This document shows, piece by piece, positions 24,516 through 34,670 of a stretch of 64,000 bases of DNA. Location of the stretch: NCBI GenBank assembly GCA_040767195.1, contig JAXGPA010000006.1, positions 75,084-139,083 of the forward strand, given 5' to 3'. The stretch comes from Syntrophales bacterium. Lineage in GTDB: Bacteria; Desulfobacterota; Syntrophia; Syntrophales; UBA6807. Made by a program: the position numbers and the translations under genes. Position 1 is the stretch's first letter; every line of letters starts with the position of its first letter. The notes under the pieces were generated by a model. The model was not told the DNA's origin, made no database searches, and saw only the letters and a program-made list of their open reading frames with translations.

Positions 24516-25413
24516 GACCCCTTTCCCTCCTTTCGAGCGCTGTCAACCGCTTCTTGATCCTGTAGAGATCCTTGTACACCTCGTCCATTTCCCGGTTTGT
24601 CGGGATGGGAAGATCCTGGAGGAGGTCGATGAGAAACTGCTGCCGGACCTTCCGGTACTCGTAGAGGGCCTTCAGGGTCTCCCGGAGCGTGTCGATGTAA
24701 TCGGGCGACCGGAGCATGTCCAGGTATCTCTTTTCGAGTTTCCCGATCCAGGTCCGGTACCAGGCCCGGGGATCCTCGAGAATTTCCGCTTTCTTCCCCT
24801 CGCCGGAGAGCATTTCCTCCTCCATCATGAGGACCGACTCTTCGATGGGGGCATAGAAAAGGTGGGCGAAATCCATGAGCCGGCCCCGGAAGGCCTGGAA
24901 ACGGTCGACGGTCAGGTTGAGGCGCTCCTGGTAATAGCGCATCAGGCCGAGCTGGGGCAGGTTGAGGTATTTCCGCATTTCCTCCTCGTAGGAGCCGAAC
25001 CAGGCCCGGGATACCTTCCGGAAGAATTCAGAAATGTCCTCGAAGCTCTTTTTTCGCTCCTCCGACGCGGGCGGCGAAAAGGAGGCCAGCTGGTTCCACA
25101 GGGGTTCCATGATCTTCAGGGCCATTTCGGGAATAGCCCCCGACGGGGCGTCACCCGAACCCTGAAGGCTCCGGAAATAGGCCTGCCAGAACTGGTCGAA
25201 GGCCGCCCGGGGGTCTTCGCCGGCTCCCGGCTTCTTCCGGTCCGCCGTTCCCGCTTCACTGTCGGCCCCGGGAAAGCCCTGCCCCTCGGCGGCGGTCTTC
25301 ATGACCCCGAACCACAGGTTGGCCGTCGATTCCCAGAAGTCGAGAGAGGCCCTCGTCAAGGACTCCAGGGGTTCGTTTTCCCCGCGGCCTCGTTCACGAT
25401 CCTTTTCCGTCAT
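24502..25413 (-). CDS. phaE: PHA synthase subunit PhaE
   Basis: PQLGLMRYYQ, WY.TWI...E, LPIPTNREMDEVYKDLY. Confidence 0.85.
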   Translation of the reverse strand: MTEKDRERGRGENEPLESLTRASLDFWESTANLWFGVMKTAAEGQGFPGADSEAGTADRKKPGAGEDPRAAFDQFWQAYFRSLQGSGDAPSGAIPEMALKIMEPLWNQLASFSPPASEERKKSFEDISEFFRKVSRAWFGSYEEEMRKYLNLPQLGLMRYYQERLNLTVDRFQAFRGRLMDFAHLFYAPIEESVLMMEEEMLSGEGKKAEILEDPRAWYRTWIGKLEKRYLDMLRSPDYIDTLRETLKALYEYRKVRQQFLIDLLQDLPIPTNREMDEVYKDLYRIKKRLTALERRERGHEKR

Positions 25414-25946
25414 GATTTTTTCCCCCTTCCCTCTTTCTTTTTCGTTTCCCCGCTTTTTTCACGCCTGTCCCGCGAGGCGCTCTCGAAGGCGGCGACATAG
25501 GATTTCATCAGTTCCTGGAACTGTTCCGTCTGGCGCGTCATGAGATCCTGAACGCCCTGGACGACCTCGTCCCGGGAGGCGTTTTCCCACCCCGCTTCCC
25601 CGCGGAGGCGTCCGATGACCGCCTCCTGCTCCGCCACCTTTTCCTTCAGCCGCGCGCATTCCTCGGCGAGCTTCCGGTACTCCTCCCGGGGAACCATCCC
25701 CATGAGGTTCATGTATTCCTCGTAGGATTTCCGGAAATTCCGCAGGGCCTCTTCCCAGGCGTCACCGCCCCCTTCTTCCGGGGCCGGTTTCTCCTTGAGA
25801 CCGTAAATTCCGGCGAGAAGATTCCCGAACTCCTGGAAGCCCTGGAACCCCTGCTCAATCCACCGGTTGAAGTCTTCCACCCGCCGCTGTCCTTTCGCGG
25901 CGGACAGGAGGACATTCCCCCAGAACTCGAGAAACCTGCTGTCCAT
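25410..25946 (-). CDS. Hypothetical helical protein, PhaE/phasin-like
   Basis: GAGGTG RBS; MGMVPREEY followed by coiled coil; embedded in pha operon. Confidence 0.6.
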   Translation of the reverse strand: MDSRFLEFWGNVLLSAAKGQRRVEDFNRWIEQGFQGFQEFGNLLAGIYGLKEKPAPEEGGGDAWEEALRNFRKSYEEYMNLMGMVPREEYRKLAEECARLKEKVAEQEAVIGRLRGEAGWENASRDEVVQGVQDLMTRQTEQFQELMKSYVAAFESASRDRREKSGETKKKEGRGKKS

Positions 25947-25960
25947 GCCGGTCACCTCTT

Positions 25961-27565
25961 TCAAGCCGCTTTCCTCGGGGTTGGCCTGCCCTTCCCGGCC
26001 GGGCCCGCCGCCTCGAGATCGAGGTGGAACCGGACGGGACCCCGGTATCCTTCTTTCCCGAAAACGGTGTGAAGGGCGCATTCCGAGGTGGGATTGGACC
26101 AGGATGTGGCGATGGCGCCGTGCCCCCGCGGGAAAACGGTCACCTCGACGTCGATGTACTTCCGCGGCGCCAGGGCGGCCTCGGGGTTAACCAGGTCGTC
26201 CTTGGCGGCGTAACACAGGAGCCACGGGATGTTCCTCTCCGGGATTCCCTTGAAATTCAGCGTTTTTCCGAAAAGCTTGACCGGAAGCGTCCCGTCCGGG
26301 GTAACGGGAACCGTGTAGGAGTCGAAACTGAGCTGGGTGATGCCCCTGGGCAGGTCGTTCCTCTCGTACATGAGCCAGTGATTCAGGGCCGCGGCGGTTT
26401 TGCTGACCTTCACTTCGCTGTCGTCGGGCCGGTCGAACATCATGAGATCCCGGTAAAAGGTGTGAATGGGGGATTCCTTGTCCATGCTCTTCAGCTTGTA
26501 CACCCAGCTCATGACCTTGCCGTCCACGACCTCCCCGACGCCGGGGAGGGCCTTGAGGGCATACCCCAGGTCCCGGAAGCGCAGGGGAATGTGCTCGAGA
26601 TACTCGACCAGGGACTGGCTTTCCGTTCCGTCCATGGGGGCGACGCAGGTGACGAGGGCGTCCACGAGGCCGTCGAGCTCACCGGAAAGAATGTCCAGGA
26701 CGGCCATGAATCCGCCCTGGCAGAAACCGTTCAGGGTGACCGGCCGGCCGTGCCTTTTCATGACCGTTTCACAGAAAAGCCGGGTGTCCCGGGCGTCGTC
26801 TTCGCCTGTCATGACCGCGAGGGCGGGCGTCACAGCCACATCCTTCATGATCCGGATGTAGGTGGGAGTACCCTGGTTGGCGAAGGCATGGGTGTAGCTT
26901 TTCCCTTCCCCGGGCAGAAAAGCGAGGATGTTCGCCCCGAGCACGTACGGGGGGATGATAACCACGGGCTTGCCGTCTTCCCGTGACGTGACGGCGGGGT
27001 CCGTGGGAAACACCCGGTAGAGAATGAACCGGTCCGTTTCCGCCACCCGCTCGTAGCCGCCGTTTTCGAAATGAAACCCGAACTCGGAGGCGATGTTCCG
27101 GATCTCGCGGCTGTAATTGTACACCAGTTCCTCGAAGATCTTTGCCTTTCTTTCCGAGTAGGCCAGGATATCCGGGCCTTCCGTCCCGGTGCAGGTGTTA
27201 AGCAGCGCCGTGAAAGCTCTCGCCCATTCCCTGGCATGGTATTCGTTGACGGAACGGATGGTGCTTAAAAGCCCTGTTTTGGCGATCTGGAGGTTGAAAT
27301 AAAAAAGCTCAAGATAGTCACGGGCCGTGTCTTCCGGGGCATGATCGCCGATCTTGACCTTTTCCATGGCCTGAAAGGATTTCAGGGCCACCCAGAAAGG
27401 TTCCATGAAATCGAAGTAATACTGCCAGAGCCCGTTGATGCAGGTCTGAGATGCCTTGACCTGCTCGAATGCCGCAAGAACGGCCTTCCTGTTCAGGTCG
27501 GTCATCTTCTCCTGAAACCGGAGAACCTCTTCCGCCACTTCCATGGGAACCATGCCCCTTTCCAT
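25961..27565 (-). CDS. PhaC-related alpha/beta hydrolase with Cys nucleophile
   Basis: PVVIIPPYV, NGFCQGG, APMD, KDDLV, RGHGAI. Confidence 0.72.
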   Translation of the reverse strand: MERGMVPMEVAEEVLRFQEKMTDLNRKAVLAAFEQVKASQTCINGLWQYYFDFMEPFWVALKSFQAMEKVKIGDHAPEDTARDYLELFYFNLQIAKTGLLSTIRSVNEYHAREWARAFTALLNTCTGTEGPDILAYSERKAKIFEELVYNYSREIRNIASEFGFHFENGGYERVAETDRFILYRVFPTDPAVTSREDGKPVVIIPPYVLGANILAFLPGEGKSYTHAFANQGTPTYIRIMKDVAVTPALAVMTGEDDARDTRLFCETVMKRHGRPVTLNGFCQGGFMAVLDILSGELDGLVDALVTCVAPMDGTESQSLVEYLEHIPLRFRDLGYALKALPGVGEVVDGKVMSWVYKLKSMDKESPIHTFYRDLMMFDRPDDSEVKVSKTAAALNHWLMYERNDLPRGITQLSFDSYTVPVTPDGTLPVKLFGKTLNFKGIPERNIPWLLCYAAKDDLVNPEAALAPRKYIDVEVTVFPRGHGAIATSWSNPTSECALHTVFGKEGYRGPVRFHLDLEAAGPAGKGRPTPRKAA

Positions 27566-27580
27566 ACGCCTTCCCTCTTC

Positions 27581-27844
27581 TTATCCTTCCTTGGGAAAGA
27601 AGGTCTCGACGCGCTTGAAGTTCTCATCCACCGTCTTCTTGAAGGCATCGAAGCCGGTCCGGTAGAGCTTCGACCACTCGGTGATGGCCTTTCTTCTCTC
27701 CGCGTCCCTGCCCGTCGCCTGGGTCAGGTACATGTCAATGACTTTCTCCATCTGCTCCTGGATCATGGTCATGGTGGAAAAAGCGCTGTCAAAAGTCGCC
27801 TTGTTCATGTCGATCATCTGTTTGAGGGTTTTTCTCGAATCCAT
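27581..27844 (-). CDS. Phasin-like small helical protein
   Basis: Paralog of the next ORF (KQ..D....F...F..M..Q.Q..K..D); AGGAG RBS; pha context. Confidence 0.7.
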   Translation of the reverse strand: MDSRKTLKQMIDMNKATFDSAFSTMTMIQEQMEKVIDMYLTQATGRDAERRKAITEWSKLYRTGFDAFKKTVDENFKRVETFFPKEG

Positions 27845-27877
27845 TGTCGGTCTCCTTTCCTGAAACCTTTTCCTTTT

Positions 27878-28153
27878 CTACTTTTTTTCCTTTTCTTCCG
27901 TGGCGAAGTACCGGTCCAGCCGGGCGAAACTCTCGTCAACGGTCTTCTTGAAATCCTGGCTGCCCTTCTTGTAGGCGTTTACCCAGTCCCGGACCGCCTT
28001 TTTCCCTTCCTCGGGAAATCCCGCGGCCTGGTCGAGGTACATGTCCATCATCCTCTGGGACTGCTCCTGAAGCATGGACAGGCCCTTGAACGAGTTCTCG
28101 AAGGTCGACCGGTAAAAATCCAACGTCTGCTTGGCCATTTTCTTGGGATCCAT
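27878..28153 (-). CDS. Phasin-like small helical protein
   Basis: GGAGGTGA RBS before MDPKK; tandem paralog; divergent from phaR. Confidence 0.7.
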   Translation of the reverse strand: MDPKKMAKQTLDFYRSTFENSFKGLSMLQEQSQRMMDMYLDQAAGFPEEGKKAVRDWVNAYKKGSQDFKKTVDESFARLDRYFATEEKEKK

Positions 28154-28228
28154 GTGAATCACCTCCATTTATTTTGTAAATCTGAACCTGAATATAAACC
28201 CCGTTTTGACCCTTGTCAAGATATTTTT

Positions 28229-28358
28229 TTTGCATTGCAACATTTTTTCTCCCGAGTCGCCGTGATTAAAATAAAATGAGTTATTAAAAGAAATTATTGT
28301 TGCAATATTTTTTCAAATTGGTTACAAGTTTCAGAATTGATATTGCAATGAAGCAATA
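28229..28358. promoter_or_regulatory. Putative PhaR operators in phasin/phaR divergent region
   Basis: TGCATTGCAACA (28231), TGTTGCAATA (28298), TATTGCAATGAAGCAATA (28341) in an AT-rich spacer. Confidence 0.5.
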
Positions 28359-28423
28359 ATGAGCGGGCGGTGTTGCCCCGGCGGGCATCGAGCCCCTTCG
28401 CTTGAGAAATCGGGGAGCAAAGG

Positions 28424-28909
28424 ATGGAAGAGACCCTGACCATAAAGAAGTACAGCAACCGCCGTCTTTACGACACGGAGGAAAACAGCTACGTGACCCT
28501 GGCCCGGGTGGCGGAGAGGATAAAGGACGGTCGGCGCGTGGAAGTCGTCGACGCCCGGACGGGGGAGGACGTCACCGCCGGCACCCTGACCCAGATTCTC
28601 GTCGAAGAGGCGAGGAAAAACAACGTGCTCCTGCCCGTCCCCGTCCTTCACCTGTGCATCCAGTTCGGAGACACCGTGCTCCAGGAATTTTTCGGGAAGT
28701 ATCTTCAGCACGCCATTCGAGGCTATCTCGCCCACAAAGCCGCCGTGGACGAACAGTTCGGGCAGTGGCTCGAGTTCGGGAGCGAACTTGCCTCCCCGTC
28801 CGCGAAAACCGTCAACCCCCTGGAGGTTTACGCCCCCTTCCTGGATTTTCTGAAGGAAATGACATTTCCCGGGGCGGCCGATAAAAAGGAACAAAAAAAT
28901 AAAAAGTAA
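28424..28909 (+). CDS. phaR: PHA synthesis regulator PhaR
   Basis: IKKYSNRRLYDTE.NSYVTL, VVDARTGEDVT..TLTQI. Confidence 0.92.
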   Translation: MEETLTIKKYSNRRLYDTEENSYVTLARVAERIKDGRRVEVVDARTGEDVTAGTLTQILVEEARKNNVLLPVPVLHLCIQFGDTVLQEFFGKYLQHAIRGYLAHKAAVDEQFGQWLEFGSELASPSAKTVNPLEVYAPFLDFLKEMTFPGAADKKEQKNKK

Positions 28910-29046: not shown

Positions 29047-29075
29047 TTGACAGATGAAAGAATTCGTCGTATTTT
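29047..29075 (+). promoter_or_regulatory. Sigma70-like promoter, peptide unit 1
   Basis: TTGACA-N17-TATTTT. Confidence 0.6.
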
Positions 29076-29111: not shown

Positions 29112-29258
29112 ATGAAAAAAGATGAAAAGAAAGAAATGAAAAAGGCGACCTACGAGAAGCCCGTCCTGACAAAATTCAAGAAACTGACGGACGTGGTGGC
29201 AGGCGAATCGCCACAGACAGGGCCGATATAGCCGGGTCTGGGTTGCACAAGATTTTAG
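29112..29258 (+). pseudogene. A-type leader peptide A1 with in-frame TAG (truncated or read-through)
   Basis: MKKDEKKEMKKATYEKPVLTKFKKLTDVVAGESPQTGPI*PGLGCTRF*; TAG at 29229-29231. Confidence 0.7.
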
Positions 29259-29268
29259 AGAGGGGGCC

Positions 29269-29397
29269 ATGAAGGAACACCGAAAAGAGAAAAAAGAGGA
29301 AAAGAAGGTCTACGAAAAACCCGCGCTGATCCGGCACGGTAAGCTGGGCGATATGACGGGAGGCCCTGTATACAACGGGTTTGAGGAGCTGGAGTGA
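29269..29397 (+). CDS. B-type lasso-leader RiPP precursor-like peptide B1
   Basis: MKEHRKEKKEEKKVYEKPALIRHGKLGDMTGGPVYNGFEELE; G-rich RBS. Confidence 0.8.
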   Translation: MKEHRKEKKEEKKVYEKPALIRHGKLGDMTGGPVYNGFEELE

Positions 29398-29468
29398 ATT
29401 AAACGCGGCAACGGGTACTTCCTTTGTCTTGACAGGTTTCGGCCTTTCTTTTCGGCTTCAAGGGGTAA

Positions 29469-29538
29469 GGGGTCGGACCAAGATAACCTGTTCATATGTC
29501 AGGATATACCTCCCCAAAAAGGCTGTTTTCAGGCCTTA
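29469..29538 (+). repeat. Copy C of GGGGTCRGACCAAG-N49-GGCCTTA element
   Basis: GGGGTCGGACCAAGATAA...49 nt...GGCCTTAGAAG, colinear with the 5139 copy. Confidence 0.72.
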
Positions 29539-30356
29539 GAAGTGCCTTTTCATACCCGGAATCAAGCTTGTAAGACAAAAAGGGCTCCTGAACAGGCCTC
29601 TCCCTCCCCGCCAGGAACCGAATCACTCTCACGGTCCCTCGATGCCCAGGCGCTTCCTGACGTTTTCTCGAAATTCCGGGCTGTCTGCCGAGACGCTCTC
29701 CAGCGGGAAGCCCTGCCTCTCAAAGCCGCCCCCGGGCGATGGTTCGAGATCGCTGCAGGGTTGCCATCCATTTCCGCCAAATCCAATGTATCCCCTTCCC
29801 CGAATGACCGACGACTCCGGCACGGACCATGTTCAGGTCAACATAAAGAAGGAACGCAATGGACGTCTGTGAAAAAATGAGTGAGATCGCACTTTACGCT
29901 CTGTCGACATGACCCGGTCAAGGGTGTGGTTCCCGTTGAGGACGCCGCCATCCGCTCTCCGGGACATCCGGCCGAGGCCTGCAGCAGCCTGACACAAATT
30001 CGCTTGCCATATCGCCTCCTCTGTGACATAAAAAAGTTATCAGGCTCCTTTGTGCAAACGTGTTCGACTCTTGCCGGTTCACGCTCACAAGTTCAGACGT
30101 CCCGCTCCGCCACCCGGGCCTACGCATCGATACCCGTATCTCGAAGATCCTGGGTTGATCCGAACCTGATTCGCCCTTTCATTTTGATTTCAACCACCCG
30201 TTTCCGTCTCCCCTGGCAGACGAACTCATGGGACCACAGGATTCCGGCACCGTGTGTTCTTTCTCCCGAAAAGCCTGTCCGTGGCGGTTTTGTCGTGTAA
30301 CCTTCAACGGGCTGAAACCCTGAGCGTTTCATGCCGAATGTGAAAGGAGGACGTCC

Positions 30357-32393
30357 ATGACCGTGAAAGAGGTGACGGAAACGTCGGAAGCTGAAATTGC
30401 CGTTCACTGGGGGGAAGAGGAGTTCTTTCATCCATCCGCCCGCTTCATCGCCCAGGCAAACATGACGGACCCGGACATCTTCGAGCGCTTCAGCCTGGAA
30501 AATTTCCCCAACTGCTTCAAGGAATACGCGGACCTTTTGACGTGGTACGAATACTGGCACACGACGCTGGACACGAGCGACGCGCCCTTTTTCAAGTGGT
30601 TCGTCGGCGGCCGGATCAATGCCAGTTACAACTGTATCGACAGGCACCTTGAAAAAAACAGGAACAAGACAGCCATTCACTTCGTACCGGAACCGGAAGA
30701 CGAAAGAGTCGAGCACCTCACCTACCGGGAACTGTACGTGAGGGTCAACGAGTTCGCGGCAATCCTGAAGGACTTCTGCGGCCTGAAGGCGGGAGACATG
30801 GTCACCCTCCACATGCCCATGGTGGCCGAACTTCCCATTTCCATGCTGGCCTGCGCGCGGCTCGGCATCATTCACTCGCAGGTTTTCGGCGGCTTCAGCG
30901 GAAAGGCCTGTTCGGACAGGATCATCGACTCGGGAAGCCGTGTCCTCATCACCATGGACGCCTATCACCGGGGCGGGCAGTTGCTCGACCACAAGGAAAA
31001 GGCGGACGTCGCCATCTCCGGGGCGGCCGCGGACAACCAGGAGGTGGACAAGGTTCTCGTCTGGCAGCGCTATCCCGGCAAATATTCGTCAAAGACCCCG
31101 ATGGTGGAAGGGCGCGACTTCTTTGTCAACGACCTGCTGAAGACGTATTACGGGGCCCGGGTTGACCCGGTGCCCATGCCGGCGGAAGCCCCCCTGTTCC
31201 TGATGTACACGAGCGGCACCACGGGAAAGCCGAAAGGCGCCCAGCACAGCACGGGCGGGTACCTTGCCTACGTAACCGGAACATCCAAGTACATCCAGGA
31301 CATTCACCCCGAGGATGTGTACTGGTGCCTGGCGGACATAGGGTGGATCACCGGCCACTCCTACATCGTTTACGGCCCCCTGGCGCTGTGCGCGTCCACG
31401 GTCATTTACGAAGGGGTCCCGACCTTCCCCGACGCCGGGAGGCCCTGGCGGATCGCCCAGGACCTGGACGTGAACATTTTTCACACCGCGCCAACCTCCA
31501 TCCGCGCCTTGAGAAAGCTGGGCCCCGACGAACCGCAGAAATACAATTACCACTTCAAACACATGACCACCGTGGGTGAGCCCATCGAACCGGAGGTGTG
31601 GAAGTGGTACTACAACGTCGTCGGGAAGGGGGAAGCGGCCATCTGCGACACCTGGTGGCAGACGGAAAACGGCGGGTTTCTCTGCAGCACCCTGCCGGCG
31701 ATTCAGCCCATGAAGCCCGGCAGCGCCGGCCCGGGGGTGCCGGGCATTCATCCCGTCGTGTTCGACGAAGACGGCAATGTCGTCCCCCCCGGCACGGGGA
31801 AGGCGGGAAACATCTGCATACAGAACCCGTGGCCCGGCAGTTTCCAGACCATTTGGCGGGACCGGGACCGCTACGTCAGCCAGTATTACGAGAGATACTG
31901 CAAGGATCCGAAAAGCAAGAGATGGCAGGACTGGCCGTACATGACCGGTGACGCCGCCGTCACCGCCGCCGACGGATACGTCCGCATACTCGGGCGGATC
32001 GACGACGTAATCAATGTTTCAGGACACCGGCTCGGAACCAAGGAGATCGAGTCCGCGGCCCTGACCATCGGCGAGGTGGCGGAGGCGGCCGTGGTACCCG
32101 TGAAGCACGAACTGAAAGGGAAGGAACCGGATCTTTATGTTGCCTTGAGGCCTGGCTGCACGCCGAGCGACGATCTCGCCAAACGGGTCCAGGACGCCGT
32201 TGTAACGGAAATCGGGGCGATCGCGAGGCCGAGAAAGGTCTGGATCGTGCCCGACATGCCCAAGACGCGGTCCGGCAAGATCATGCGCCGCGTTCTCAAC
32301 GCCATTTCCAACGACACGGACGTGGGCGACGTCATGACCCTGGCGAATCCGGAAATCGTCGACGAAATAACCAGGATGGTCAGGAAAAAGTAG
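30357..32393 (+). CDS. acs: Acetate--CoA ligase (AMP-forming)
   Basis: YTSGTTGKPKG, ADIGWITGHSY, VGEPI, DTWWQTENGG, GRIDDVINVSGHRLG, PKTRSGKIMRR. Confidence 0.95.
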   Translation: MTVKEVTETSEAEIAVHWGEEEFFHPSARFIAQANMTDPDIFERFSLENFPNCFKEYADLLTWYEYWHTTLDTSDAPFFKWFVGGRINASYNCIDRHLEKNRNKTAIHFVPEPEDERVEHLTYRELYVRVNEFAAILKDFCGLKAGDMVTLHMPMVAELPISMLACARLGIIHSQVFGGFSGKACSDRIIDSGSRVLITMDAYHRGGQLLDHKEKADVAISGAAADNQEVDKVLVWQRYPGKYSSKTPMVEGRDFFVNDLLKTYYGARVDPVPMPAEAPLFLMYTSGTTGKPKGAQHSTGGYLAYVTGTSKYIQDIHPEDVYWCLADIGWITGHSYIVYGPLALCASTVIYEGVPTFPDAGRPWRIAQDLDVNIFHTAPTSIRALRKLGPDEPQKYNYHFKHMTTVGEPIEPEVWKWYYNVVGKGEAAICDTWWQTENGGFLCSTLPAIQPMKPGSAGPGVPGIHPVVFDEDGNVVPPGTGKAGNICIQNPWPGSFQTIWRDRDRYVSQYYERYCKDPKSKRWQDWPYMTGDAAVTAADGYVRILGRIDDVINVSGHRLGTKEIESAALTIGEVAEAAVVPVKHELKGKEPDLYVALRPGCTPSDDLAKRVQDAVVTEIGAIARPRKVWIVPDMPKTRSGKIMRRVLNAISNDTDVGDVMTLANPEIVDEITRMVRKK

Positions 32394-32510
32394 GGAAAAC
32401 ACCGACCCATGTTAAAGAGTGAGAAGGAGGTGATGCAGGAAGGGAAAGCGGAATGAAGGGCCGAAAAGGGCATCCAGGGTGAACGACAAAGAAGAAAGGA
32501 GGGTCATGTG

Positions 32511-32933
32511 ATGAATCTGATCGTCGAACGAGTGGATGTTTGGGCAGCCGCAATCAGGGACGAACCAGGCGGCCTGGCAAAGATACTCTCCGGACTGAAG
32601 GATGCCGGCGCGGACCTCGATTTCATCATTGCCAGGCGGGCGCTGGAACAACCCGGCAAGGGGGTTGTGTTCGTCACCCCGCTCCGGGGCGACGCCGAGG
32701 TCCGGGCCGCCTCAACCTTGGGCTTCAACGTGACGAGCAGCCTCAAGTCGCTCCGCGTGGAGGGAGACAACAAACCGGGAGTCGCCGCGGTACTGACGGA
32801 AAAACTTGCGGCGGCGGGAATCAACCTTCATGGCTTCTCGGCGGCCGTCATCGGGGCGCGGTTCATCATTTACATCAGTTTCGACAGTAGCGAAGACGCC
32901 GCGAGCGCGGAAGCAATCCTGAAAAAGGGGTAG
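32511..32933 (+). CDS. Tandem ACT-domain protein
   Basis: DEPGGLAKIL..L and DNKPGVAA.LT..LA.AGINL ACT motifs. Confidence 0.8.
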   Translation: MNLIVERVDVWAAAIRDEPGGLAKILSGLKDAGADLDFIIARRALEQPGKGVVFVTPLRGDAEVRAASTLGFNVTSSLKSLRVEGDNKPGVAAVLTEKLAAAGINLHGFSAAVIGARFIIYISFDSSEDAASAEAILKKG

Positions 32934-33280
32934 ATCGAACCCGGAAACGACGGAAAGCGAAAGCAATGCGCCTGTGACTGTGTCCGACCGACGGCGGATG
33001 GCCGGGAAGGACGAAGCGCCGGCGGGTCCCTGGATTTCAGAGACCCGTCCGCCGCCGGTCAGATCACGACGGAATCATGTGACATCCATCGTGATGGACA
33101 GGTGGGACCCTTACGTTGCGGCCTCCAGGGCCTGTATTCCTGAAGCCGGTAATCAGCGGCGCCTCCTCGGCAAGTCCCGGAATGAACGATCTCATCCGGT
33201 TAAAGGTTTCAAACCCAGGAATTGGGGGAAAATAAAACCCGGCAGGGACATAACGTTTTGTTATTTCGTTTTAATATTTT

Positions 33281-33308
33281 TTGACAGGCACGAAATTATC
33301 TATAATCT
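33281..33308 (+). promoter_or_regulatory. Sigma70-like promoter, peptide unit 2
   Basis: TTGACA followed by TATAATCT (spacer 14 to TATAAT, 16 to TAATCT). Confidence 0.5.
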
Positions 33309-33342
33309 TATGACATATCCTATTCACCATTAAGGAGGGGCC

Positions 33343-33471
33343 ATGAAGAAAGAAGAAAAGAAGGAACGGAAAAAGGCTCCCTATGAAAAGCCCGTCCTGA
33401 CGAAATTCGGGAAGCTGGCGGACGTGACGGCGGGGGTATCGGAAGGGGCACTCGGCTGCACGAGATTGTAA
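33343..33471 (+). CDS. A-type RiPP precursor-like peptide A2
   Basis: MKKEEKKERKKAPYEKPVLTKFGKLADVTAGVSEGALGCTRL; AAGGAGG RBS. Confidence 0.82.
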   Translation: MKKEEKKERKKAPYEKPVLTKFGKLADVTAGVSEGALGCTRL

Positions 33472-33481
33472 GGAGGGGATT

Positions 33482-33610
33482 ATGAAAGAATACCGGGAAG
33501 AGAAAAAAGAAAAAGAAGAGAAGAAAGTCTACCAGAAACCGGTTCTCACCTTTCGCGGGAACCTGAAGGATGCCGCGGCCGGGCCGCCGAACGGATCAAA
33601 CTTCAAATAA
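33482..33610 (+). CDS. B-type RiPP precursor-like peptide B2
   Basis: MKEYREEKKEKEEKKVYQKPVLTFRGNLKDAAAGPPNGSNFK; AGGAGG RBS. Confidence 0.8.
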   Translation: MKEYREEKKEKEEKKVYQKPVLTFRGNLKDAAAGPPNGSNFK

Positions 33611-33632
33611 TCCTGCCGTGGAATCGAACTCC

Positions 33633-33663
33633 AGGCCGTCCTTCGGGGCGGCCTTTTTATTTT
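33633..33663 (+). terminator. Intrinsic terminator, unit 2
   Basis: AGGCCGTCC-TTCG-GGGCGGCCT-TTTTATTTT. Confidence 0.8.
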
Positions 33664-33781
33664 CCGGCCCTGACATTCCAGGGTGCCCTGCGATCAACGA
33701 TCTTCCCCGGGTCCGGGCCTCCTTTTGCCTCGGCCGGGATGAAATCATATAAGGACAAGGTTATAAAAATTCTGATAAGAC

Positions 33782-33810
33782 TTGACACATTTCATAATTT
33801 TTCTTACTGT
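33782..33810 (+). promoter_or_regulatory. Sigma70-like promoter, peptide unit 3
   Basis: TTGACA-N17-TACTGT. Confidence 0.6.
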
Positions 33811-33845
33811 CTTTCTGATTCCATCTTCAGCCTGAAGGGGGGAGT

Positions 33846-33983
33846 ATGAAGAAAAAAGAAAATCGAGAGATCAAAAAGGCCAGGTACGAAAAGCCCGTCC
33901 TGACGAAATTCAATAAATTGAAGGACGTGATGGCGCAGGGACACACTGGGCCTGAAACTCCGCTGGGCTGCACAAGATTTTAG
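33846..33983 (+). CDS. A-type RiPP precursor-like peptide A3
   Basis: MKKKENREIKKARYEKPVLTKFNKLKDVMAQGHTGPETPLGCTRF; G-rich RBS. Confidence 0.82.
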   Translation: MKKKENREIKKARYEKPVLTKFNKLKDVMAQGHTGPETPLGCTRF

Positions 33984-33993
33984 GGAGGAGACA

Positions 33994-34113
33994 ATGATAG
34001 GAAAACCTGAAGAGAGAAAAATGGAAAAGAAGGCCTATGAGAAGCCCGAACTGAAGCGGTACGGGAAGCTGACGGACGTGATGGCGGAGCTTGTCACGTT
34101 GAAGCCTAAATAA
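33994..34113 (+). CDS. B-type RiPP precursor-like peptide B3
   Basis: MIGKPEERKMEKKAYEKPELKRYGKLTDVMAELVTLKPK; GGAGG RBS. Confidence 0.78.
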   Translation: MIGKPEERKMEKKAYEKPELKRYGKLTDVMAELVTLKPK

Positions 34114-34130
34114 GACCGGAAATAAAAATC

Positions 34131-34162
34131 AGGCCGTCCTTCGAGGCGGCCTTTATATTTTT
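34131..34162 (+). terminator. Intrinsic terminator, unit 3
   Basis: AGGCCGTCC-TTCG-AGGCGGCCT-TTATATTTTT. Confidence 0.75.
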
Positions 34163-34245
34163 CCTTCCAGCCGCTCCAGGAAGGCCGAAAAGCAACGACC
34201 TTTCCCGGGGAGGAGGCAGGACGGGTCTAAATGTTACGAAGACCC

Positions 34246-34274
34246 TTGACTGACAGGAAGTTTTTTCCTATTTT
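34246..34274 (+). promoter_or_regulatory. Sigma70-like promoter, peptide unit 4
   Basis: TTGACT-N17-TATTTT. Confidence 0.55.
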
Positions 34275-34309
34275 TTTGAATTTCTTACATTCCGTGAGGG
34301 GTGGAAGCC

Positions 34310-34441
34310 ATGAAGGAAAAACATGAAGAGAAGAAAGTTGAGAAGAAGATCTACGAGAAGCCGGATCTGAAGCGGCATGGGAAGCTGACCGACATGGTGG
34401 CGGGCGGTATAAGCCCGAATGGTAGTAATGACATCGATTAG
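34310..34441 (+). CDS. B-type RiPP precursor-like peptide B4 (unpaired)
   Basis: MKEKHEEKKVEKKIYEKPDLKRHGKLTDMVAGGISPNGSNDID. Confidence 0.8.
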   Translation: MKEKHEEKKVEKKIYEKPDLKRHGKLTDMVAGGISPNGSNDID

Positions 34442-34491: not shown

Positions 34492-34518
34492 GGGCCGTCT
34501 TTCGGGGCGGCCTTTTTT
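34492..34518 (+). terminator. Intrinsic terminator, unit 4
   Basis: GGGCCGTCT-TTCG-GGGCGGCCT-TTTTT. Confidence 0.8.
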
Positions 34519-34593
34519 GTTTGAAAGTGGGGAGAGAATGACCCCCGAAACGGAAAAAGGGGTCACGGTTTTCCCGCAACCCCTTGATTTTCC

Positions 34594-34670
<77 letters not shown>

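What the first reader, a model, noticed from the sequence alone, without database searches (positions are those of the whole stretch)
29112..34441. Array of seven unannotated lasso-leader peptides in repeated A+B units: candidate new RiPP/peptide system
Seen: seven ORFs of 39-48 codons, below the ORF-track cutoff, each with an RBS. All have a K/E-rich N-terminus and Y-[EQ]-K-P-x-L-x-x-x-x-[KN]-L-x-D, followed by short and very different tails. Three units are A then B with exactly 10 nt between A stop and B start; a fourth has B only. Established: YxxPxL...L leaders bind RiPP recognition elements (lasso B1/PqqD fold). Differences from lasso peptides: only two of seven keep the penultimate Thr, and the cores are too short to thread a ring. 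Inference: a non-lasso, RRE-dependent and possibly two-component peptide family with diversifying cores.
Basis: partly seen in the sequence, partly recalled or inferred. Interest (0 to 1): 0.9.

Follow-up and report, generated by a model that had tools for sequence, protein, structure and literature searches.

The report
Scattered precursors for cyclase-free phosphopeptides
These seven tiny genes are real peptide precursors that a lasso-type enzyme cluster elsewhere in the genome, lacking the ring-closing enzyme, most likely turns into short linear phosphate-decorated peptides, some carrying a conserved cysteine tail that may be the target of an extra radical enzyme.

Summary
The seven ORFs are real and belong to a ten-member family in this genome. 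The genome's only RRE and only B2 leader peptidase lie on contig C8 with an HprK-like kinase, a PF14907 nucleotidyltransferase, a radical SAM/SPASM enzyme and a DUF362 + B12-radical SAM pair; no lasso cyclase is there. All 14 of 339 same-order genomes with the kinase orthologue carry these precursors, 12 of the 13 other than G000 in cis. Cores are short (median 8 aa), 62 of 66 hold Ser, and a conserved LGCxxF tail occurs only where the SPASM orthologue does (2 of 2 versus 0 of 14 genomes). Best reading: linear Ser/Thr-phosphorylated peptides, a B2-cleaved cousin of the 2026 LPP family; obligate A+B pairing is unsupported. This scan noted such cyclase-less clusters before on other DNA. No product or activity has been shown.

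The parts
29047..29075 (+). sigma-70-like promoter of cassette 1
   Evidence: consensus match only
29112..29231 (+). precursor A1, 39 aa; predicted core GESPQTGPI, ended by in-frame TAG
   Evidence: this 39-aa form is seen on 10 contigs (P0034)
29232..29258 (+). in-frame remnant of the LGCTRF tail behind the A1 stop, probably untranslated
29269..29397 (+). precursor B1, 42 aa; predicted core GPVYNGFEELE, the only one of 66 cores without Ser or Thr
33281..33286 (+). TTGACA -35-like box of cassette 2 (no canonical -10 spacing)
   Evidence: not passed by the strict scan
33343..33471 (+). precursor A2, 42 aa; core GVSEGALGCTRL with Cys tail; passes NF033521
33482..33610 (+). precursor B2 (peptide), 42 aa; core GPPNGSNFK
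33633..33662 (+). terminator-like hairpin, shared family with cassettes 3, 4 and the C7 cassette
33782..33787 (+). TTGACA -35-like box of cassette 3
   Evidence: not passed by the strict scan
33846..33983 (+). precursor A3, 45 aa; core QGHTGPETPLGCTRF with Cys tail
33994..34113 (+). precursor B3, 39 aa; core ELVTLKPK
34131..34160 (+). terminator-like hairpin of cassette 3
34246..34274 (+). sigma-70-like promoter of cassette 4
34310..34441 (+). precursor B4, 43 aa; core GGISPNGSNDID
34492..34520 (+). terminator-like hairpin of cassette 4, just before tRNA-Pro

Best explanation
The seven ORFs, with three more on C7 and C9, are RiPP precursors processed in trans by the single maturation cluster on contig C8 (RRE, B2 cysteine peptidase, radical SAM/SPASM, HprK-like kinase, PF14907 nucleotidyltransferase, and convergent DUF362 + B12-radical SAM). 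Proposed steps: (1) the RRE binds Tyr(-17)/Pro(-14)/Leu(-12) [inferred from the identical register in BsfA]; (2) the kinase phosphorylates a Ser or Thr at core position 2-7 [inferred from BsfK and LppK and from Ser enrichment]; (3) the nucleotidyltransferase adds a nucleotidyl or sugar group to that phosphate [inferred, weakest core step]; (4) optional tailoring: B12-radical SAM methylation [guess from family] and SPASM action on the Cys of the LGCxxF tail, most likely a thioether cross-link [inferred from co-occurrence]; (5) B2 cuts after residue -1 and frees a linear 5-15 residue peptide, which in relatives is N-capped by pyroglutamate, formyl or acyl groups [site supported comparatively]. 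Shown here: genes, motifs, selection, co-occurrence. Not shown: any product. Most likely role (about 40%): a fast-diversifying small-peptide library for signalling or competition.
For: One RRE and one B2 in a 98.8% complete genome, adjacent to each other; B2 keeps Cys-His, kinase keeps His/Walker A/DD; RRE's best solved relative is the lasso RRE TbiB1. Of 339 same-order genomes, 16 have precursors, 14 the kinase orthologue (E <= 1.4e-97, next hit 5.6e-21) and all 14 have precursors; 13 of the 16 have the B2 orthologue. In 12 of the 13 kinase genomes other than G000 a precursor lies beside B2 or the kinase, including the same-genus G001 at the syntenic site; G458 from another order repeats the layout. 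Ser in 62 of 66 cores against a control mean of 29.8 (max 44 of 1000 draws) and 1 of 67 leader 8-mers. 7 of the 14 kinase genomes have no asparagine-synthetase/cyclase-like match at all. 4 of 4 clusters with an in-cluster glutamine cyclotransferase encode a precursor with Gln exactly at predicted +1, versus 1 of 7 family-f15 kinase genomes without. Cys in 49 of 116 database homologues, always as [LF]GC plus 3-5 residues; tail in 2 of 2 genomes with the SPASM orthologue and known cores, 0 of 14 without.
Against: In G000 no precursor lies in the cluster, so the link is by homology and uniqueness only. 3 of the 10 G000 cores lack Ser and B1 lacks Thr too; only 2 of 10 keep Thr(-2), and LppK did not accept Thr (PMC13381572) although BsfK did (PMC10368454). 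Deleting lppN changed nothing detectable (PMC13381572). Genomes are kin, so the counts overstate independence; the tail-SPASM link rests on two positives and two close negatives (G001, G458), and the alignment used for held four tail-bearing rows. G123 and G126 have one precursor each but no orthologous kinase or B2; G270 has B2 and SPASM but no precursor found (70% complete). G000 and G001 have Gln(+1) cores without a cyclotransferase. No ABC exporter motif within 3 kb of 16 cluster loci (several contigs end early). RNA support is weak: contigs of 2 of 3 RNA runs touch cassettes 3-4, none covers A2/B2. The strict promoter scan found 2 sites against 2.0 expected by chance.
Confidence: 0.72

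Rival explanations
1. The G000 copies are orphans drifting away from the cluster: duplicated cassettes, partly dead, no longer processed.
For: In-frame stop in A1; B1 has no Ser/Thr; Thr(-2) mostly lost; a 165-bp dispersed repeat sits inside the C8 operon; thin RNA cover.
Against: Leader pN/pS 0.35-0.37 and synonymous variation in the tail codons; over 100 close homologues with the same relaxed -2 residue and recurrent tail-less forms; all C8 genes are intact.
Confidence: 0.08
2. The peptide is only a scaffold: the modified Ser (and Cys) is excised as a small intracellular metabolite or cofactor, as in PQQ or mycofactocin (analogy recalled).
For: Little beyond one Ser is conserved in the cores; no exporter seen; radical SAM enzymes are frequent partners.
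Against: Ser position varies from 2 to 7; N-terminal capping enzymes and up to 8-10 divergent paralogues per genome make sense only if the peptide persists; patchy presence, 14 of 339 genomes.
Confidence: 0.08
3. Obligate two-component system in which an A (Cys-tail) and a B peptide act together.
For: Three A-then-B cassettes in the window; the C7 cassette also has two genes.
Against: Solo A-type genes in G001, solo B4 and C9 copy, variable tandem numbers in relatives, B cores unrelated to each other.
Confidence: 0.06
4. True lasso peptides, cyclised in trans by one of the two asparagine-synthetase-like proteins.
For: YxxPxL leader, B1 + B2, kinase and nucleotidyltransferase as in the bsf cluster; two AsnB-like genes in G000; A3 and 14 of 116 homologues have Asp/Glu at 7-9 with a tail; one AsnB-like gene lies about 1.6 kb from an orphan precursor in G122.
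Against: 65 of 66 cores fail the ring-plus-tail test (that G122 core has 5 residues); 7 of 14 kinase genomes have no cyclase-like match; G000's two lie among glycosyltransferase and corrinoid-methyltransferase-like genes (read from sequence); a glutamine cyclotransferase or formyltransferase needs the amine that a lasso ring consumes.
Confidence: 0.04

Closest known systems
Linear polyphosphorylated peptides (LPP; lppA-K-B-S-D-N) of Bacillota, PMC13381572
   Same: Discrete RRE, HprK-like kinase and nucleotidyltransferase without macrolactam cyclase; YxxP leader of the same register; internal Ser near the core start; variable C-termini.
   Different: B2 cysteine peptidase instead of SipW-like LppS (TIGR02228 not found in G000); cut predicted after T-x rather than after T; no MsbA-like exporter seen; cores of 5-15 aa rather than 45 in the tested case; up to ten precursors, in trans; radical SAM and N-capping enzymes; different phylum.
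bsf phosphorylated-lasso cluster of Bradymonas sediminis (bsfA, K, B1, B2, N, C, D), PMC10368454
   Same: Split B1/B2, kinase, nucleotidyltransferase; Tyr(-17)/Pro(-14)/Leu(-12); non-Thr residue at -2; Ser near position 3.
   Different: bsf has the cyclase C and exporter D; here neither is in the cluster and cores are too short to thread.
Paeninodin / pseudomycoidin lasso clusters (PadeK, PsmK, PsmN), as reviewed in PMC8498205
   Same: HprK-like kinase plus nucleotidyltransferase acting on a precursor Ser; PsmN adds hexose to the phosphate in vivo.
   Different: Those modify the C-terminal Ser of a lasso; here Ser is C-terminal in only 4 of 66 cores and there is no lasso.
TIGRFAM cassettes HPr-rel-A (TIGR04352), SynChlorMet (TIGR04248/04249), GeoRSP (TIGR04302/04303)
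   Same: PqqD-family protein with HprK-related kinase and/or radical SAM/SPASM; all give sub-threshold hits to the C8 proteins.
   Different: All scores are far below the curated cut-offs (e.g. 80.6 vs 200 for TIGR04352; 35.9 vs 100 for TIGR04248).

Membership tests
Lasso peptides | YxxPxL leader | tested here: met
   10 of 10; 1 of 7 above NF033521 cut-off
Lasso peptides | RRE (B1) and transglutaminase-like peptidase (B2) | tested here: met
   one each, adjacent, on C8
Lasso peptides | asparagine-synthetase-like macrolactam cyclase with the cluster | tested here: not met
   none in the C8 locus or among ORFs of the related clusters; no NF033535 match at all in 7 of 14 kinase genomes. The cut-off itself is insensitive: G017's cluster cyclase-like gene also missed it.
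Lasso peptides | Asp/Glu at core 7-9 with a tail to thread | tested here: not met
   1 of 66 cores (A3) passes, criterion D/E at 7-9 plus at least 5 further residues; 14 of 116 database homologues
Lasso peptides | Thr at -2 | tested here: inconclusive
   2 of 7 here, 51 of 67 family-wide; Ile/Val(-2) is known in lasso precursors (PMC10368454)
LPP (Popov et al. 2026) | discrete RRE + HprK kinase + NTP transferase, no cyclase | tested here: met
LPP (Popov et al. 2026) | archaeal-type signal peptidase LppS | tested here: not met
   no TIGR02228 match in G000; B2 present instead
LPP (Popov et al. 2026) | MsbA-like exporter in the cluster | tested here: not met
   no ABC motif pair within 3 kb of 16 loci (motif test, some contigs truncated)
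LPP (Popov et al. 2026) | (poly)phosphorylation of a core Ser | not testable with these tools
   Ser in 62 of 66 cores, position 2-7 mostly; no biochemistry
LPP (Popov et al. 2026) | RRE falls in the LPP clade | not tested
   no tree with LppB was built
Sacti-/ranthipeptides (definition recalled) | radical SAM/SPASM enzyme plus Cys-bearing core forming a thioether | tested here: inconclusive
   CxxxCxxC and a Cys-rich SPASM domain present; Cys tail co-occurs; cross-link not testable

The most novel reading that the evidence does not exclude
A modular, undescribed RiPP class: one RRE serves a genome-wide library of 5-15 residue cores; kinase and nucleotidyltransferase build a nucleotidyl-phospho-Ser/Thr, B12-radical SAM/DUF362 methylates it, and a dedicated SPASM enzyme uses the invariant LGCxxF tail to close the hypervariable core into a thioether ring, so that a single stop codon (as in A1) switches a precursor between cyclic and linear product.
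Probability: 0.22. Interest if true: 0.82.

Novelty: new variant of a known kind. Interest (0 to 1): 0.55.

Why it matters
It extends cyclase-free, kinase/nucleotidyltransferase RiPP chemistry from Bacillota LPPs to anaerobic syntroph-type bacteria with a different protease, and offers unusually tractable substrates (8-residue cores, 116+ natural variants) for three open questions: what PF14907 nucleotidyltransferases do to phosphopeptides, what DUF362 does beside a B12-radical SAM, and what the SPASM enzyme does to the LGCxxF tail. It also shows that precursors can be dispersed as promoter-peptide-terminator cassettes far from their enzymes, where cluster-based mining misses them.

Tried and rejected
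Pyrrolysine read-through of the A1 TAG: no PylS above cut-off, no CUA tRNA among 39 tRNAs; rejected. ACS/ACT and PHA genes as part of the system: they lie on three separate contigs in G001 with no link to its precursors; rejected. The formyltransferase after the C9 precursor as an orthologue of the cluster formyltransferases: only 32-36% over 53-97 residues, and another G000 gene scores higher; left open. RRE-leader complex prediction: never ran, queue full; no result. Laying reads: contigs only; the A1 stop was not among the 40 differences shown of 204, so its polymorphism is untested; run X17 had no cover on any precursor. Metagenome scan gave only 4 loci, none with a Cys-tail precursor in reach. 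Order of G458: 2 of 27 genomes matched, no new case. Phylum sample: 7 of 401 matched, four of them (G603, G649, G687, G503) with longer cores and more distant enzymes, G603 beside asparagine-synthetase-like ORFs, so they were left out of all counts. ESM Atlas: nearest cluster unnamed, 110 members. Scan look-up by sequence: nothing. Paper searches found no description of this architecture; Kretsch et al. 2023, which may list RRE-peptidase pairs in non-lasso clusters, was not held.
Full report
OBSERVATION. All seven ORFs are in the sequence. A genome-wide motif scan and a profile search find exactly ten family members: the seven, two in tandem at C7:254162 and 254313, and one at C9:65502. Tyr, Lys, Pro and Leu of YxKPxL and a later Leu are invariant in all ten. 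A1 is 39 codons: an in-frame TAG separates it from an intact eight-codon tail, so its real gap to B1 is 37 nt; A2-B2 and A3-B3 are 10 nt. The stop is not pyrrolysine, and the 39-aa form is recorded on 10 contigs. The region is four cassettes, each with a TTGAC box 62-65 nt upstream (5 of 6 cassettes in the genome, sixth at 78-86; chance 7.5% per window), three ending in a shared hairpin. The strict promoter scan passes only two, no more than chance. The acetyl-CoA synthetase and ACT genes between cassettes 1 and 2 are unrelated: in G001 the three flanking blocks lie on three contigs. Leaders are under purifying selection (pN/pS 0.37 for the seven, 0.19 for 45 family-f15 precursors), cores are not (about 1.0, uncorrected, ungapped).

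THE ENZYMES. G000 (98.8% complete) has one PqqD-family RRE and one transglutaminase-like B2, adjacent on C8. The operon reads RRE, B2, radical SAM/SPASM, HprK-like kinase, PF14907 nucleotidyltransferase, met head-on by DUF362 and a B12-radical SAM. Catalytic motifs are intact. No precursor lies there in G000, but the same-genus G001 has one directly after the nucleotidyltransferase at the syntenic site and lacks the three radical SAM/DUF362 genes there. Among 339 genomes of the order, 16 have precursors, 14 have the kinase orthologue, separated by more than 70 orders of magnitude from the other 30 genomes with weaker kinase hits, and 14 have a strong B2 hit plus one weak one. All 14 kinase genomes have precursors; three of them seeded the profiles, eleven are independent tests, though kin. 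In 12 of 13 other than G000 a precursor lies beside the kinase or B2. Exceptions: G123 and G126 (one precursor, no orthologous enzymes), G245 (contig starts inside the SPASM gene, B2 not found), G270 (B2 and SPASM, no precursor, 70% complete). G458, from another order, has RRE-B2-kinase-nucleotidyltransferase facing DUF362-B12-radical SAM with three precursors between. Records titled Smithella and Syntrophaceae carry the same clusters.

NO LASSO. With the BsfA register (Tyr -17, Pro -14, Leu -12; PMC10368454, passages), 67 distinct precursors (69 rows, two exact duplicates dropped) have Thr at -2 in 51; 66 have a core, median 8 residues; only A3 passes a ring-plus-tail test. No genome of 18 has a lasso cyclase above the NF033535 cut-off, but that test is weak because G017's cluster-linked synthetase-like gene also misses it; stronger is that 7 of the 14 kinase genomes have no match at all. 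G000's two asparagine-synthetase-like genes lie on other contigs. One such gene is near an orphan precursor in G122, whose core has five residues. The variable genes inside related clusters are N-capping enzymes that need a free amine: glutamine cyclotransferase, formyltransferase, GNAT. In 4 of 4 clusters with the cyclotransferase a precursor in the cluster begins with Gln exactly at +1, against 1 of 7 family-f15 kinase genomes without it (p = 0.015 ignoring kinship). This supports both the B2 cut site and a linear product. G000 and G001 have Gln(+1) cores and no such enzyme.

WHAT THE CORES KEEP. Ser is in 62 of 66 cores and Ser or Thr in 65; matched-length C-termini of long ORFs give 29.8 on average, at most 44, and leader 8-mers 1 of 67. 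Ser is internal, mostly position 2-7, as for BsfK and LppK (Ser3), unlike PadeK. G000 itself is the weakest case (7 of 10 with Ser, 9 with Ser or Thr). A protein search returned 150 hits, 120 listed, 116 with the motif: Ser/Thr in 111; residue -2 relaxed (Val 45, Thr 34, Ile 11, Leu 11); 49 have Cys, always as LGC (48) or FGC (1) plus 3-5 residues, LGCTRF in 29, each with Ser or Thr upstream (the query held four tail-bearing rows and hits include the window's own peptides). Tail codons vary synonymously. The SPASM orthologue (62% identity; others 38% or less) is in G000, G245 and G270 only. Tails occur in G000 and G245 and in none of the 14 other genomes with cores. Only G001 and G458 are close negatives, so this is a lead, not proof.

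MECHANISM. Shown: genes, selection, co-occurrence. Inferred from named precedents: RRE binding and RRE-assisted kinase and B2 action (BsfB1/K/B2), phosphorylation of an internal Ser/Thr, a linear product (LPP). Less sure: the nucleotidyltransferase step (PsmN adds hexose in vivo per PMC8498205, passages; lppN deletion had no visible effect). Guessed: methylation by the B12-radical SAM with DUF362, seen as a pair in 8 genomes, and a Cys thioether by SPASM. No exporter was seen. Expression: contigs of RNA run X15 cover 33884-34348 and X16 34164-34328, the non-coding stretch 29584-30011 is uncovered in all three RNA runs, A2/B2 is uncovered; DNA carry-over is not excluded. I put the pathway reading at 0.72 and a signalling or competition role at about 0.4.

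COMPARISON. It works like LPP (PMC13381572; I read abstract, introduction, the first two results sections and discussion, and searched the text; no supplements) but fails two defining features, LppS and the exporter. It shares everything with bsf except cyclase and exporter. It is not a lasso peptide system. The LPP main text has no mention of radical SAM, DUF362, formyl or syntrophs. RRE-Finder notes that about half of lasso-type RRE hits lack peptidase plus cyclase (PMC7470986, passages); PMC10885120 was seen as passages. Searches found no paper on this architecture; subscription papers, including Kretsch et al. 2023, were not available. NCBI already labels two homologues 'putative RiPP precursor' and 'lasso RiPP family leader peptide-containing protein'. 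Earlier notes of this scan describe cyclase-less B2 clusters in other genomes, one with DUF362, radical SAMs and formyltransferase; they pointed me to the LPP paper, which I then read.

VERDICT. What this locus adds is the dispersal of ten precursors in trans, comparative support for the cut site, and the LGCxxF tail tied to a SPASM enzyme. Interest 0.55.

Noticed in passing
L004:14063-14226 (G000:C8:231799-231962): A roughly 165-bp dispersed repeat (24 blastn hits in G000) sits between the B2 and SPASM genes; a 97%-identical metagenome contig (L093) lacks it there. Looks like a miniature mobile element.
   Followed up: partly
window 25410-28909: PhaR-like regulator (PF07879) divergent from two short phasin-like ORFs and a 534-aa possible PHA synthase; the last three had no Pfam hit and the labels are recalled.
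   Followed up: no
window 30357-32933: Acetyl-CoA synthetase plus ACT-domain gene, conserved as a pair in relatives at other sites, well covered by RNA contigs.
   Followed up: partly
L088:276-7518: G193 has a different cluster: B2, RRE, a precursor ending in a Tyr-rich run, kinase, nucleotidyltransferase, B12-radical SAM and an asparagine synthetase.
   Followed up: no
L069:2-3305 and L084:2846-8136: G117 and G120 carry a second RRE-nucleotidyltransferase-kinase cassette, in G120 fused to GT2 domains, right beside the cluster.
   Followed up: no
L003:10375-11472: Formyltransferase-domain gene directly after the C9 precursor, followed by a sulfatase and its maturase; link unproven.
   Followed up: partly
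window 34563-34664 and L002:10607-10804: Two of the precursor sites in G000 abut tRNA genes (Pro; Asp and Val), typical insertion sites.
   Followed up: no
window 29200-34307: Contigs in runs X15 and X3 join cassette 1 to cassette 3 or 4 with short sides (20-30 letters), and carry a variant of A3/B3 with 21-25 differences; may be strain-level reshuffling or paralogue cross-mapping.
   Followed up: no
L074:8953-16306: G099's cluster holds GNAT, ATP-grasp, glutamine cyclotransferase and Mur-ligase-like genes as tailoring candidates.
   Followed up: no
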